Origin: a virus
Lineage: Duplodnaviria; Heunggongvirae; Uroviricota; Caudoviricetes
Strand: one strand, 5' to 3'
IMG/VR virus record: IMGVR_UViG_2861053794_000003
Coordinates: 1 to 48,167 of that record
Length of the DNA stretch: 48,167 nt
Shown here in pieces: positions 39,001-42,000 of this stretch. Position 1 is the stretch's first letter, and each line of letters begins with the position of its first letter. The position numbers were made by a program.

Positions 39001-42000
39001 TCGCGCCCACTCCGGCGTACTAGCTCAACAACCTGCCCTTTAATTTTTTCTCGCTCTTCTTGTGTAAAAACTTTTGCCACAAGCCCTCCTGAAAATTACC
39101 TCATGACCTGAAATAAACACTTACCCCCTGAAGCCTGGCGGAATTTCGGTATCCGGTTCAGAAACATGATTCACACAACGCTGGTTGTTCGTGCCGCTTA
39201 CCGGGAGCAACCAGGGGTTTTCAAAATTCCGGTCCGGTCCAAAAAACGTCGTCGCTCGCTGAACAAATTCCGTTCCCGTTTTCCCGGTAGTCGCCAGGTA
39301 TCTTGCGTAACGCCTCACGCCATCCAGCATGGCCTCTGGTGGCACCCCCTCGCGTAATCTGGCCTTCCAGGCACTGAAAGCGGATTTCTTCGGGTTTGCC
39401 CCGGCACGCAACGGGTATTCCCGCCAGACCTGTTCGAACACATCCGGATAATCCACTCGTCTCACAGGCTGCCCGGTGTTTTCCGGGACTACCTGATCGG
39501 CTTCCCGCTGAATGGCGGAATCGGCTTCAGGCTGCTGCAGTTGGTGTGATTGTTCCGGCCTTGCGGTCATCGCCTGCTGCACAGCGCCCGAATCGGCTTC
39601 CGGTGTCGTGCCTGCTGGCTGACCAGGATTGACGTTCTGAACATCCCCTGCCTGGTTTGTGGCGATTTTTTCGCCATGAAGCATAGTATTTTTATCCTGA
39701 TCCTGTTCTTTCTCCTGTTCCTGTTCTTGGCTTAGAAGCCCCTTTAAAGCCTCTTCGAAGCCCCTTGCTGAATTCCGGCGATTATTCCGCCTCACATCCA
39801 GATGGAAATCCGTTTTATATCTGTCGTAAAAGGCTGACAGAAAGGCGTTTTCAGGTAATGATGCATACTCATTCCTGACACCTGCACAACGGTTATCTCC
39901 AGGCTTCAACGTTTCCCCAACCTGCCAGGCTGCCATTTCATGGACCCAGACCATCTCGGCATCATGGTCATAGCTACAAAAACCAGCTTCAACAGCCCTT
40001 TTAAGCCCCTTCGAAGCCCCTTCCGGACCAAGCCCGGTTTCATGAGCAAGGTACAAAACTGGCAGGTAATACAAACCCAACATATTTGCGTGAGGGGATG
40101 TCATCAGGTAAAAAGCAACAACTTGCGCTTCTGCACCCGCCTTTCTAAGTTCTCTCCCCGTTTCTCCCAGCCAGAATCGCGGGGAAACTTTTGCATAATC
40201 ACGCATGTTCACCTCGTCTGGAGCCAAACCTTCCTCTGGTTATAATCTGTGATTCACCAATCAACAGAACCAGAGGAGGTTCGACATGGATTTTGCAACT
40301 ATCACAAGTAGCGTTGTGTTGAGTGCGTGTGTTGCTGGCGTGGTTTCGCTGGTTAATGGTGCCTGGCAACGCAAATCGGAACGAACCATTGAAGCGCAAC
40401 GCCGGGCTGCTGAAGCCAGAGCAAAAATAAGAGAAATGGCTCTCACTCTCGCATTGAAAGAATGGGAGCTCCACCAAACCATATCGAAGGCAAAGGGGTA
40501 TGGTGTCAGCGGCCCAGAAGTTTACGTCTTTCGATACTTTCGTATGCTCAACCTGATGGAGGAAGACAAATTCACGATTGAAAATCTCAGACTGATCCAG
40601 TACGACTCCATGTGTGCTGTTGCAGCAATTCAGGCAGAGATCGAGCGATATCGGGAGAAAAACGGCCTCCCGATGCCATAAACAATCAGCATTTTTCATC
40701 TTTCCAAATCCTCATATCAGGCTTGCGCCCAATGAACCGACGAAGACAATTTAAAGTCCATCGGGTGAAGTAATCCCTGAAACCAAAGAGATACCAGGTG
40801 AACAGATTCACGATAAAATGTCCGGCCAGAGCCCCACCAATACCACAGGCAAGAACAGTAAAAAAATCAGGTAGATTCACAGCCCCCTCCGTCATTGTTA
40901 ACGCCATCCGTGCTTTTAGTGCATCACCACGGCATTTCCTGCCGGGCCACCACGGTTCATCTGATTGAAACCGGCAATCGCCACTGCGACAAAATCATCA
41001 GCGTCTCTCACCAGTCGTTCCCGCGTCTCCACCAGCTCCCGAAAATAGGCTGAACTGTGGCTGCGCATTCGGGCCACCAGCAAAGGTGGCATTGCCTTTT
41101 CGATCGCTGGTAACAACGCCTGAATTTTTTCAACAGCATCAGGGGTGTCTTTCTCTACCCAGCGGAAAATTTTCTGGGTATTACGAGCTAGGGCTTCCGG
41201 ATGGCTGTCGCCGTACAGTTCCGGAAATGTCATTCCCAGTTCAAAATACGCTTTGGTAATCTTCGCAGTTGGTACTTTCTCGCCATCCGGATGCGCCCAG
41301 GCATTCATCGCCATGCGGATGTGCTCATGGCTGATTTTCATGAATCATTTGCCTCTTGATATTTCGGGTATGCTCATTTTCGTCATTTGGTTGCTTCATC
41401 AACATATTCAGCGAATAGCATGACGAGCGTCGTAAGTATGACCAGTCAACATCAGGACGAAGTTCTTCGCACAGAACACCACCTCTTGTTGCACGTTCAA
41501 TTGCTGGACATCGCTCAGCAGGCAACTGACGTACACCTTTGATCCATTGATTTACGCTTGGAGGTGATACACCTAAAAGCCTAGCCATTGCAGATTGCCC
41601 ACCGACAACAGCACACGCTCGTTTGAATGAATAGTTCTCTTTTTTCATCGAATGAACTCCAAAAAAACACGAAACAATATTAGGCGACGCCTAATGCAAA
41701 TGTCAATAGGCGTCGCCTAACGCAAATGAAGTAGGTATTGCCTAATTCAATGAGCATAGGAGAGTATTAAGCAATGCTTAGTGGTAAAGACTTAGGCCGA
41801 GCGATAGAGCAGGCCATTAACAAAAAAATTGCATCAGGATCCGTCAAATCAAAGGCGGAGGTAGCGCGTCACTTCAAAGTCCAACCACCATCAATCTATG
41901 ATTGGATTAAGAAAGGTTCGATAAGTAAAGATAAACTTCCAGAACTATGGCGTTTCTTTTCTGATGTGGTTGGCCCAGAGCATTGGGGGCTTAACGAATA

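What the first reader, a model, noticed from the sequence alone, without database searches (positions are those of the whole stretch)
40286..40681. Plus-strand signal-anchored coiled-coil gene embedded antisense within the early-right operon
Between the YdaT-like gene and the replication gene there is a gene on the opposite strand with one of the best SDs in the window (AGGAGG, 6-nt spacing). It encodes an N-terminal TM helix followed by a charged helical domain. Opposite-strand insertions with own translation signals in the replication module are typical of lysogen-expressed morons, for example superinfection exclusion. The minus-strand ORF overlapping it (40199..40699) looks like its shadow.
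Basis: inference. Interest (0 to 1): 0.45.

Follow-up and report, generated by a model that had tools for sequence, protein, structure and literature searches.

The report
Known anti-lambda gene PD-lambda-6 in prophage
The plus-strand gene is real and is PD-lambda-6, a small membrane-anchored prophage gene already shown by experiment to protect E. coli against phage lambda; what seems new is its packaging, namely a conserved partner mini-gene and a portable promoter and RNA-hairpin leader that many unrelated prophage genes share.

Summary
Observation confirmed. Window 40286..40681 (+) is a real 131-aa gene with SD AGGAGG at 6-nt spacing, one N-terminal TM helix and a helical C-terminal domain. 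dN/dS is 0.03-0.10. The overlapping minus-strand ORF 40199..40699 is a shadow (dN/dS about 1, stops in orthologues).

The gene matches PADLOC PD-Lambda-6 over its full length (E 9e-90). This is a one-gene defence system validated against lambda-vir by Vassallo et al. 2022. Its mechanism is unknown. The gene itself is already known.

Beyond the finding:
1. It lies in a 676-bp indel (40208..40883) that related Rac-like prophages lack.
2. A 64-aa TM ORF (40686..40880, minus strand, dN/dS about 0.1) converges on it with stops 4 nt apart. It accompanies every close PD-lambda-6 copy examined and lay inside the published functional clone.
3. The 65 nt before the ATG form a leader found in at least 119 prophage contigs, ahead of about 30 different cargo ORF types.
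4. That leader's hairpin pairs better on the operon strand (69 G.U cells against 0).

Proposed and untested: PD-lambda-6 is on in the lysogen and is silenced by convergent pR transcription, perhaps also by the mini-protein, on induction.

The parts
40286..40681 (+). PD-lambda-6 CDS. 131 aa, with an N-terminal TM anchor (about residues 5-27) and a cytoplasmic helical domain.
   Evidence: ORF. PGAP WP_000344866.1. PADLOC PDLC04020 E 9.2e-90, 1-131/131. PHROG 36733. dN/dS 0.03-0.10. AF2 model.
40274..40279 (+). Shine-Dalgarno AGGAGG, 6 nt before the ATG.
   Evidence: Sequence. Conserved as GGAGG in the 46 unique leaders that carry both hairpin arms; the scan pattern required this motif.
40241..40246 (+). 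Putative -10 hexamer TATAAT of the gene's own promoter. The -35 is weak (CTGGAG at 17 nt), and the predicted TSS is near 40253.
   Evidence: Sequence. The equivalent position in other leaders reads TGaTATTCT, TGaTACTCT or TATCCT. The published clone, with 257 bp upstream in a promoter-less vector, was active. The strict two-hexamer scan did not call it. No TSS data.
40223..40285 (-). Conserved hairpin on the operon (minus) strand RNA. Its arms are about 40224-40241 and 40268-40285, and its loop holds the antisense of the cargo -10. It ends about 18 nt before the replication gene's start codon.
   Evidence: MFE -34.9 kcal/mol, z -7.3. RNAalifold finds 15 pairs. 96.3% of cells are paired, against 32-57% for slid controls. 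69 G.U cells on the minus strand against 0 on the plus strand, and the minus strand is the more stable in 31/31 sequences. Absent from a cargo-less relative. No Rfam hit.
40686..40880 (-). Small convergent gene. 64 aa, GTG start preceded by GGAGG, one TM helix and a basic cytoplasmic tail. Its stop is 4 nt from the PD-lambda-6 stop.
   Evidence: Annotated as WP_135247427.1 in sister genomes. Conserved beside every close PD-lambda-6 copy examined. dN/dS about 0.10-0.15. TM and charge. No Pfam, PHROG, PADLOC or NCBIfam hit.
40208..40883 (.). Extent of the inserted cassette: leader, PD-lambda-6 and small ORF. Related Rac-like prophages lack it.
   Evidence: BLASTN boundaries against Salmonella, Citrobacter and Trabulsiella loci. 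Relative NZ_CP027544 has ydaT directly next to the replication gene. Found in 16 of 5426 complete E. coli genomes, always whole.
40199..40699 (-). Shadow ORF (166 codons), not a protein-coding gene. It is the frame codon-aligned to the antisense of PD-lambda-6.
   Evidence: dN/dS 0.95-1.28, with stops in E. albertii and Trabulsiella. No family hits. Probability of being open by chance is about 0.10.
41677..41706 (-). pR-like early-right promoter (TTGACA, 18 nt, TAATAT) upstream of the ydaS/cro-like gene. It is the presumed source of transcripts that converge on PD-lambda-6.
   Evidence: Consensus scan, 10/12 matches. Its position between racR (41774..42250, plus strand) and the ydaS-like gene (41325..41648, minus strand). 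Consensus-level evidence only.
40916..41341 (-). YdaT-family gene. It is the operon neighbour on the promoter-proximal side of the cassette.
   Evidence: Pfam PF06254 E 7.4e-10. PGAP.
39121..40206 (-). DnaD-like replication gene (replisome organiser). It is the next operon gene after the hairpin.
   Evidence: PHROG 1701 E 6.9e-144. PGAP CDS 39121..40206.

Best explanation
The plus-strand ORF is PD-lambda-6, a prophage accessory ('moron') gene. It encodes a small inner-membrane protein: about 4 residues outside, one TM helix, and a cytoplasmic helical domain of about 100 aa. It protects the lysogen against superinfecting lambda-like phage at a step after adsorption.

**Shown**
- The gene is real and under strong purifying selection.
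- It is a full-length PD-Lambda-6 family member.
- The reference system gave anti-lambda-vir protection from a 912-bp clone with its native upstream region.
- The gene sits antisense in the pR operon inside a 676-bp indel.

**Inferred**
1. It is transcribed in the lysogen from its own promoter (-10 at 40241-40246), while RacR keeps pR off.
2. On induction, pR transcription runs head-on through it. Promoter interference and sense/antisense RNA pairing then shut it down.
3. The same pR transcript expresses the convergent 64-aa TM protein, which may neutralise PD-lambda-6 protein already in the membrane. This would let the resident lambdoid prophage escape its own defence. It would be a mirror image of the Tha/Ith noncontiguous operon.
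4. The operon-strand hairpin, placed just before the replication gene's ribosome site, keeps that downstream gene expressed despite the antisense insertion. It could act as a 5' stabiliser or processing boundary.

**Effector step, my committed guess.** The cytoplasmic domain recognises a phage or host factor at the inner face of the membrane and blocks or aborts development after genome entry (about 55%). The alternative is that it blocks genome entry (about 30%).

**Confidence by layer.** About 0.9 for identity and anti-phage role, about 0.5 for the regulatory logic, and about 0.35 for the mini-protein being an inhibitor. The single confidence figure given (0.75) applies to the core claim, which is that this is PD-lambda-6, an anti-phage moron of the prophage.
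For: - **Identity.** PADLOC E 9.2e-90 over 1-131/131. All 25 family members in A2 hit the same model.
- **Experimental basis.** PMC9519451 Table S1 lists the system as validated. Table S2 gives ORF 426209-426605 and cloned region 425952-426863. The text states native promoter, promoter-less low-copy vector and adsorption unaffected.
- **Selection.** dN/dS 0.03-0.10.
- **Topology.**
- **Indel and antisense placement.** Seen in seven different prophage backgrounds. These include different cro, repressor and replication modules and, in Trabulsiella, the head/tail operon.
- **Retention in a decayed remnant.** The gene is kept in an E. albertii prophage remnant at icd, where the mini-ORF is frameshifted. 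This fits a host-beneficial gene that can persist without the mini-ORF.
- **Mini-ORF.** It is under purifying selection and was found next to no other cargo under the same leader.
- **Hairpin.**
- **Precedent.** Antisense-coupled self-immunity is described in PMC11087260.
Against: - There are no expression data. The promoter is a consensus-level call with a poor -35, and the strict scan missed it.
- No terminator separates the convergent genes.
- The mini-ORF also occurs without PD-lambda-6, in the nin region next to an unrelated AT-rich cargo.
- One remote PD-lambda-6 homologue (L156) has a non-TM 89-aa convergent neighbour instead. In Hafnia the convergent TM ORF lies on the cI side. The pairing is therefore not universal.
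- The published clone contained the mini-ORF and still protected. If the mini-ORF is an inhibitor, it must have been silent there.
- Antisense embedding is a property of every cargo under this leader, not a specific adaptation of PD-lambda-6.
- Nothing in sequence or fold points to a target.
- Whether the published system is abortive or direct is shown only in a figure I could not read.
Confidence: 0.75

Rival explanations
1. PD-lambda-6 and the 64-aa TM protein form an obligate two-component defence. For example, one could be a membrane effector or toxin and the other its sensor or regulator. In that case the published 'single-gene' assignment is incomplete.
For: - The cloned region in PMC9519451 extends about 257 bp beyond the stop, so it includes the whole mini-ORF and its SD (geometry).
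- The mini-ORF accompanies every close PD-lambda-6 copy examined, even in the Trabulsiella structural operon.
- A TM mini-ORF also converges on the 36%-identical Hafnia homologue.
- It is under purifying selection.
- Both TM helices carry small-xxx-small motifs (sequence).
Against: - In E. albertii the mini-ORF is frameshifted while PD-lambda-6 stays intact in many isolates.
- In its native setting the mini-ORF has no promoter of its own that I could see. It sits in the repressed pR operon, so it should be off in the lysogen, which is when defence is needed.
- Remote homologue L156 lacks it.
- The mini-ORF occurs alone elsewhere.
Confidence: 0.2
2. PD-lambda-6 is a classical superinfection-exclusion protein that blocks lambda genome entry at the inner membrane, for example by interfering with ManYZ-dependent injection. 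The mini-ORF and the antisense layout are then incidental.
For: - It is membrane-anchored, small, non-enzymatic and prophage-encoded.
- It was selected with lambda-vir and adsorption was unaffected.
- There are precedents for cytoplasm-side interference with injection, for example DicB (title and abstract of PMC6832061).
Against: - Almost the whole protein is predicted to be cytoplasmic, with only about 4 residues outside.
- An entry block would not need self-immunity, which leaves the specifically linked mini-ORF unexplained.
- No homology to SieA, Imm, gp15 or Cor-type families was returned by Pfam or PHROGs.
Confidence: 0.3
3. The mini-ORF is merely an ordinary early-operon gene that hitch-hiked with PD-lambda-6 during recombination, and the two have no functional link.
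For: - An 81%-identical copy sits after ninE in other lambdoid prophages, with DNA homology ending exactly at its stop.
- It is always co-oriented with the host operon.
Against: - Co-transfer into the Trabulsiella head/tail operon.
- None of the other cargo types found under the same leader has it.
- The 4-nt stop-to-stop spacing is preserved across saturated dS.
Confidence: 0.3
4. The minus-strand ORF 40199..40699 is the real gene and the plus-strand ORF is its shadow.
For: It is longer (166 codons) and open in the window, Citrobacter and Salmonella.
Against: - dN/dS is about 1.0-1.3, against 0.03-0.10 for the plus frame.
- It is interrupted in E. albertii (3 stops), Trabulsiella (1) and Hafnia (1).
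- It has no family hits.
- No E. coli genome record examined here annotates it.
Confidence: 0.02

Closest known systems
PD-lambda-6 (Vassallo et al. 2022, Nat Microbiol; PADLOC PDLC04020; source E. coli UMB6655, RRK48647.1)
   Same: Full-length HMM match at 295.6 bits over 131/131 residues, the same ORF length, and a lambdoid prophage origin. This is membership, not resemblance.
   Different: Nothing at the protein level. The publication treats it as a one-gene system of unknown mechanism. It does not discuss the convergent mini-ORF inside the clone, the leader hairpin or the alternative cargos.
Tha/Ith 'noncontiguous operon' of S. aureus phage 80alpha (Rostol et al. 2024, PMC11087260)
   Same: A prophage defence gene and a small gene on the opposite strand have overlapping transcription. 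This makes lysogenic defence and lytic self-immunity mutually exclusive.
   Different: - There is no sequence relationship.
- The polarity is mirrored. Here the defence gene is the antisense insert with its own promoter, and the small gene rides the lytic operon.
- Inhibition by the small protein is untested here.
P22/lambda SieB with Esc and the sas antisense RNA; lambda RexAB; BstA with its aba element (own knowledge; BstA also mentioned in PMC11087260)
   Same: These are lysogen-expressed exclusion or abortive functions of lambdoid prophages that need a built-in way for the resident phage to escape. In SieB that way is antisense RNA.
   Different: No homology was detected. PD-lambda-6 is much smaller than RexA or BstA, and its single TM helix plus three-helix arrangement matches none of them.
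Injection-blocking Sie proteins (P22 SieA, T4 Imm, HK97 gp15) and DicB (PMC10883804, PMC6832061; otherwise own knowledge)
   Same: These are small prophage-encoded proteins, membrane-located or acting at the membrane, that stop infection after adsorption.
   Different: The bulk of PD-lambda-6 is predicted to be cytoplasmic. There is no homology, and an entry block has not been demonstrated.
Classical morons of lambdoid phages (Juhala/Hendrix definition; review PMC3594210)
   Same: An extra gene present or absent between two conserved phage genes, with its own promoter, and beneficial to the lysogen.
   Different: There is no own terminator. The orientation is antisense. The cassette also carries a structured element selected on the host operon's strand, and about 30 different cargo ORF types share it.

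Membership tests
PD-lambda-6 defence family (PADLOC/DefenseFinder) | Full-length sequence match to the family model | tested here: met
   PDLC04020 E 9.2e-90, 295.6 bits, residues 1-131 of 131.
PD-lambda-6 defence family (PADLOC/DefenseFinder) | Architecture: about 115-140 aa, one N-terminal TM helix, helical C-terminal domain with an EW..H motif | tested here: met
   Hydropathy. AF2 model. Near-invariant A52, A56 and W60 across 25 members.
PD-lambda-6 defence family (PADLOC/DefenseFinder) | Reduces plaquing of lambda-vir when expressed from its native upstream region, without reducing adsorption | not testable with these tools
   Shown for the reference clone only (PMC9519451).
Moron (independent transcription unit inserted between phage genes) | Present or absent between otherwise homologous neighbouring genes | tested here: met
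   NZ_CP027544 and others have ydaT directly followed by the replication gene. Cassette boundaries are 40208 and 40883.
Moron (independent transcription unit inserted between phage genes) | Own promoter | tested here: inconclusive
   A consensus -10 TATAAT lies at 40241-40246, and the site is conserved across leaders. The -35 is weak and the strict scan did not call it. The published clone's activity supports a promoter within 257 bp.
Moron (independent transcription unit inserted between phage genes) | Own terminator | tested here: not met
   Only 4 nt separate the stop from the convergent gene. The nearest plus-strand terminator-like site is 41073-41090, inside ydaT.
Moron (independent transcription unit inserted between phage genes) | Expressed in the lysogen | not testable with these tools
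   No transcriptome data are available here.
Superinfection-exclusion proteins that block genome entry (SieA, Imm, gp15, Cor types) | Homology to a described Sie family | tested here: not met
   No Pfam or NCBIfam hit. The only PHROG hit is 36733, 'unknown function'. No PDB relative by sequence or fold.
Superinfection-exclusion proteins that block genome entry (SieA, Imm, gp15, Cor types) | Blocks DNA entry | not testable with these tools
   Needs injection assays.
Tha/Ith-like antisense self-immunity module | Defence gene and small gene on opposite strands with necessarily overlapping transcripts | tested here: met
   The genes converge with stops 4 nt apart and no terminator between them.
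Tha/Ith-like antisense self-immunity module | The small gene product inhibits the defence protein and is needed for prophage induction | not testable with these tools
   Only indirect hints: the mini-ORF is decayed in the non-inducible E. albertii remnant.
Lipoprotein (label attached to PD-Lambda-6 in a review, bioRxiv 10.1101/2024.10.26.620412) | Lipobox with an invariant Cys after a positively charged n-region | tested here: not met
   L12-S13-A14-C15 resembles a lipobox. However, the n-region has no K/R, and Cys15 is replaced by G or I in P0030-P0032 and other homologues. Hydrophobic residues continue after it.
Holin (weak HHpred/Pfam hits) | Match beyond a generic TM helix, and location in a lysis cassette | tested here: not met
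   The hits cover only residues about 6-40, at 59-87% HHpred probability. 1 of 25 members hits a holin Pfam at E 0.0012. The prophage's lysis genes are at 25149-26668.

The most novel reading that the evidence does not exclude
PD-lambda-6 is one cargo of a previously undescribed portable 'antisense moron' expression cassette of enterobacterial lambdoid prophages. The cassette is a leader of about 65 nt. On one strand it provides a promoter and SD for a lysogen-expressed cargo. On the other strand it provides a selected RNA hairpin that preserves expression of the next lytic-operon gene. About 30 cargo ORF types use it, mostly uncharacterised, among them a hypervariable ECs1072 family; they would be candidate lysogen-benefit or defence genes. 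In the PD-lambda-6 version, a linked 64-aa membrane protein made from the lytic operon would act as the prophage's self-immunity factor.
Probability: 0.3. Interest if true: 0.65.

Novelty: already known. Interest (0 to 1): 0.4.

Why it matters
The gene itself adds nothing new. It is another copy of a validated but mechanistically unexplained anti-lambda gene, present in 16 of 5426 complete E. coli genomes.

Three points make the locus useful:
1. The published minimal clone contains a second conserved gene. The 'one-gene system' entry in PADLOC and DefenseFinder may therefore need checking. The pair also offers a simple, testable model of how a lambdoid prophage avoids its own anti-lambdoid defence.
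2. The shared leader is a ready-made sequence tag for finding lysogen-expressed accessory genes in prophages. It is independent of defence-island context and yields many uncharacterised candidates.
3. The hairpin shows a strand asymmetry (G.U pairs on the operon strand only). This is a rare sequence-level sign that a moron carries an element serving the host phage's own operon.

Tried and rejected
- **Minus-strand ORF as the gene.** Rejected on dN/dS and on stops in orthologues.
- **Lipoprotein reading.** Rejected. The Cys is not conserved and the n-region has no charge.
- **Holin or LapA relationship.** Rejected. Only generic TM matches.
- **Sequence search against PDB.** Nothing below E 0.05.
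- **Sequenced phages.** tblastn against 50,697 phage records found no PD-lambda-6.
- **Rfam.** No family for the leader.
- **Hairpin as an intrinsic terminator.** No U tract follows it, so this reading is unlikely.
- **Hairpin as a native operon element.** Rejected. It is absent from a cargo-less relative.
- **Antisense frames kept open under all cargos to prevent Rho polarity.** Rejected as a general rule. Other cargos have many antisense stops. For PD-lambda-6 itself a weak hint remains.
- **Mini-ORF as a general anchor of a defence hotspot.** Not supported. The nin-region copy sits next to a single AT-rich 600-aa gene with no PADLOC or Pfam hit.
- **Other cargos as known defence genes.** Not supported. 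There was one weak PADLOC hit (E 5e-4), and one cargo belongs to the BssS family.
- **Profile-based locus searches.** These failed with the broad alignments. With narrower alignments they returned few remote loci.
- **Phage range and abortive or direct status of PD-lambda-6.** I could not retrieve these, because they are shown only in figures of PMC9519451.
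Full report
**Observation**

Window 40286..40681 (+) is an ATG-initiated ORF of 131 codons. AGGAGG lies at 40274-40279, six bases before the ATG. Residues 5-23 give the best hydrophobic window (mean Kyte-Doolittle 2.02). The N-flank MDFA carries no positive charge and the C-flank is rich in K/R, so the predicted topology is N-out, C-in.

An AlphaFold2 model built on nine homologues has mean pLDDT 83.4 and is entirely helical, with helices 3-70, 77-92 and 98-125. That amounts to one TM helix running into a charged stalk, followed by two further helices. 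It is not a demonstrated coiled coil.

The window is identical over the compared region (39000-42400) to E. coli 95-3322, NZ_CP027461.1. PGAP annotates this ORF there as WP_000344866.1, a hypothetical protein.

**Surroundings**

| Coordinates | Strand | Feature |
|---|---|---|
| 41774..42250 | + | racR |
| 41677-41706 | - | pR-like promoter |
| 41325..41648 | - | YdaS/Cro-like gene |
| 40916..41341 | - | YdaT-family gene |
| 39121..40206 | - | DnaD-like replication gene |

The window as a whole is a nearly complete lambdoid prophage, with lambda-like head and tail genes and an integrase.

**Which strand codes**

I compared the window with five orthologues: Salmonella (two loci with identical proteins), Citrobacter, Trabulsiella and E. 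albertii.

- The plus frame has dN/dS 0.03-0.10, while dS is 0.86-2.0.
It carries three stops in E. albertii and one in Trabulsiella.
- The shadow ORF hits nothing in Pfam, PHROGs, PADLOC or NCBIfam.

**What the gene is**

The protein matches PADLOC model PDLC04020, PD-Lambda-6, at E 9.2e-90 over 1-131 of 131 positions. It also matches PHROG 36733, of unknown function.

PD-lambda-6 comes from the functional selection of Vassallo et al. 2022 (PMC9519451). The paper and its supplementary tables give the following:

- The source is E. coli UMB6655, protein RRK48647.1, ORF 426209-426605, cloned region 425952-426863.
- It is listed as 'Hypothetical', validated, with no escape plaques.
- HHpred gave only weak TM-type hits.
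- Systems were cloned with their predicted promoters into a vector lacking an upstream promoter. Each reduced plaquing of the selecting phage, and none affected adsorption.

The paper never discusses PD-lambda-6 individually. I could not read the figure that shows its phage range or whether it acts by abortive infection. A later review calls it 'related with lipoprotein'. I reject that label: the L-S-A-C motif lacks a charged n-region, and the Cys is not conserved among homologues.

**Family size**

- A word-indexed search of 5.8 billion proteins found eight clusters. Those that carry a source name are from Enterobacteriaceae.
- A profile search of 1.84 billion representatives found only 26 at E below 1e-3. 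Most are 101-152 aa, the rest being a few fragments and two long multi-stretch proteins. Of these, 20 were aligned, and they share the architecture and near-invariant A52, A56 and W60. All 25 sequences in that alignment hit the PADLOC model.
- No sequenced phage in INPHARED encodes it.
- No solved structure is related by sequence or by fold.
- The best BFVD match is an uncharacterised Ralstonia phage protein, which is probably a family member.

**It is an insertion**

Homology with the Salmonella, Citrobacter and Trabulsiella loci covers window 40208..40883, which is 676 bp. Related Rac-like prophages such as NZ_CP027544 have ydaT directly followed by the replication gene. The cassette is present, always whole, in 16 of 5426 complete E. 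coli genomes.

In every setting it is antisense to its neighbours. These settings are:

- different cro, repressor and replication modules in Salmonella, Citrobacter and E. coli;
- between the capsid and FI packaging genes in Trabulsiella;
- a decayed prophage remnant at icd in E. albertii.

Four bases beyond the PD-lambda-6 stop, a minus-strand ORF ends at 40686. Its best start is GTG at 40880, preceded by GGAGG, which gives 64 aa. Sister genomes annotate this ORF as WP_135247427.1. In this genome the locus tags jump from RS10275 to RS10285.

The protein has one TM helix and a basic tail with 9 K/R in 30 residues. It lies beside every close PD-lambda-6 copy examined, including the Trabulsiella structural-operon insertion. 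Its dN/dS is about 0.10-0.15 at saturated dS. It is frameshifted only in the E. albertii remnant.

The published clone extends about 257 bp past the PD-lambda-6 stop. If UMB6655 has the same layout, as all 16 complete genomes do, the clone contained the whole mini-ORF.

The link is not absolute:

- An 81%-identical copy follows ninE in other prophages, next to an AT-rich 600-aa gene. DNA homology there ends exactly at the mini-ORF stop.
- The 36%-identical Hafnia homologue has a different 58-aa TM ORF converging on it.
- A metagenomic homologue has a non-TM 89-aa neighbour.

**A shared leader**

Five E. coli genomes match only window 40210-40294. There the same upstream sequence, up to ATG+2, drives a different antisense gene at the same ydaT/replication junction. 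That gene belongs to the ECs1072 family and is 152 aa.

I scanned IMG/VR for AACCTYC-N30-52-GGAGGYTCGRCATG. Findings:

- The downstream ORFs fall into about 30 different types by length and N-terminus. The 145-157-aa types look like divergent members of two superfamilies, so the number of truly unrelated families is lower. They are mostly uncharacterised.
- In that scan only the PD-lambda-6 cargos were followed by the mini-ORF.
- In 73 of 85 loci the next operon-strand gene starts 77-80 nt from the cargo ATG.

**The hairpin in the leader**

The leader folds into a long hairpin. For the window, the MFE is -34.9 kcal/mol with z -7.3 on the minus strand. Across 31 distinct leaders:

- 96.3% of cells pair, against 32-57% for slid controls.
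- Every departure from Watson-Crick pairing is a G.U on the minus strand. There are 69 G.U cells on the minus strand and none on the plus strand.
- Pairing is 96.1% on the minus strand against 81.3% on the plus strand, and the minus strand is the more stable in 31 of 31 sequences.

Part of the outer stem was fixed by my search pattern. The informative pairs, columns 5/67 and 15-18/53-56, were not.

The element is absent from a cargo-less relative and from Rfam. No U tract follows it. I conclude that the cassette carries an RNA element selected on the host operon's transcript, immediately upstream of the next gene's ribosome site. Its role is inferred, not shown. It might act as a 5' stabiliser, a processing boundary or an insulator.

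**How it most likely works**

Shown:
- The gene is under purifying selection.
- It is a family member.
- The reference clone gives an anti-lambda phenotype.
- It sits antisense within an indel.

Inferred:
1. It is transcribed from its own promoter in the lysogen. The -10 TATAAT lies at 40241-40246, and other leaders have TGnTAnnnT-type -10 elements at the same place.
2. It is shut off by head-on pR transcription after induction.
3. The mini-protein is made from pR at the same time and may neutralise PD-lambda-6.

This is the mirror image of the Tha/Ith noncontiguous operon, in which antisense layout couples defence to the phage life cycle (PMC11087260).

A pure entry block would not threaten the resident prophage. 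The specific linkage to a lytic-operon mini-gene therefore tilts me toward a post-entry or abortive action from the cytoplasmic face of the membrane (about 55%) over an injection block (about 30%). This is a judgement, not a result.

**Verdict**

The gene is already known. The mechanism, the role of the mini-ORF and the function of the leader hairpin remain open and can be tested directly.

Noticed in passing
window 40223-40288; loci L030-L148 (IMG/VR), L025, L029, L156: A conserved leader of about 65 nt (promoter, SD and operon-strand hairpin) precedes about 30 different antisense cargo ORF types in at least 119 prophage contigs. The commonest cargos are ECs1072-like proteins of about 151 aa and a second family of about 151 aa ending in LPELRWSDLPNELF. 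Both are highly diversified. One cargo is a BssS-family protein. No Rfam family covers the leader.
   Followed up: partly
L017 4001-4195, L018 1341-1535, L019 129-323 (homologues of window 40686-40880): An 81%-identical copy of the 64-aa TM mini-ORF sits after ninE in other E. coli lambdoid prophages and, unannotated, in Stx1 phages AU6Stx1 and SH2026Stx1. It is followed by an AT-rich segment (33% GC) holding a convergent gene of about 600 aa that is rich in S, T and N. That gene has no Pfam or PADLOC hit and is split by frameshifts in two of the loci.
   Followed up: partly
window 40199-40699 (minus strand); L009, L013, L014, L026: The 'shadow' frame shows no protein-level constraint. It is nevertheless open in the three lineages where the cassette sits upstream of replication genes, and closed in the three other contexts. 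The chance of being open is about 0.10 per lineage. Where open, it starts at an ATG inside the mini-ORF's 3' end and stops within 0-9 nt of the next gene's start (ATGCGTGA, ATGAATGA, TATGA). This may be translational coupling that prevents polarity, or it may be coincidence.
   Followed up: partly
window 40682-40915 in NZ_CP027461.1 annotation: PGAP leaves this stretch empty in this genome, and the locus tags jump from RS10275 to RS10285. Four sister genomes among the hits carry a second hypothetical CDS under this stretch; in the one inspected (HY220605) it is the 64-aa ORF WP_135247427.1. The annotation is inconsistent for a gene that is under purifying selection.
   Followed up: yes
window 29563-30678 (minus strand) and 31304-31458 (minus strand): Four tandem copies of the Rfam sRNA family STnc100 (77-132 bits) lie downstream of two prophage tRNA genes (Lys and Ile), between the Q/methyltransferase region and a SASA-family esterase gene.
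   Followed up: no
window 8747-9910 (minus strand), 2508-2648 (minus strand): A full-length ompC porin paralogue is embedded among the tail genes, between minor tail protein L and the tape-measure region. A Hok/Gef toxin gene lies next to the tail-fibre gene. Both look like further accessory cargo of this prophage.
   Followed up: no
window 36547-37109 (plus strand): A ParD/ParE toxin-antitoxin pair is also inserted antisense in the early-right (nin) region. It does not use the PD-lambda-6-type leader, which occurs only once in the window.
   Followed up: partly
window 43809-43997 (plus strand): The same prophage carries dicB. The abstract of PMC6832061 says DicB protects E. coli from phage infection by inhibiting inner-membrane receptor proteins. 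The element may therefore hold two independent anti-phage functions.
   Followed up: no
window 1-1031 (minus strand): An IS100 (IS21-family) element abuts the prophage tail-fibre gene at the left end of the window, so the prophage may be truncated or disrupted there.
   Followed up: no
L005-L008 (E. albertii, next to icd): PD-lambda-6 survives intact in a prophage remnant that has lost most phage genes, while the leader hairpin's inner stem and the mini-ORF have decayed. dN/dS rises to about 0.10. A frameshifted PD-lambda-6 variant (P0006) also exists in this species.
   Followed up: partly
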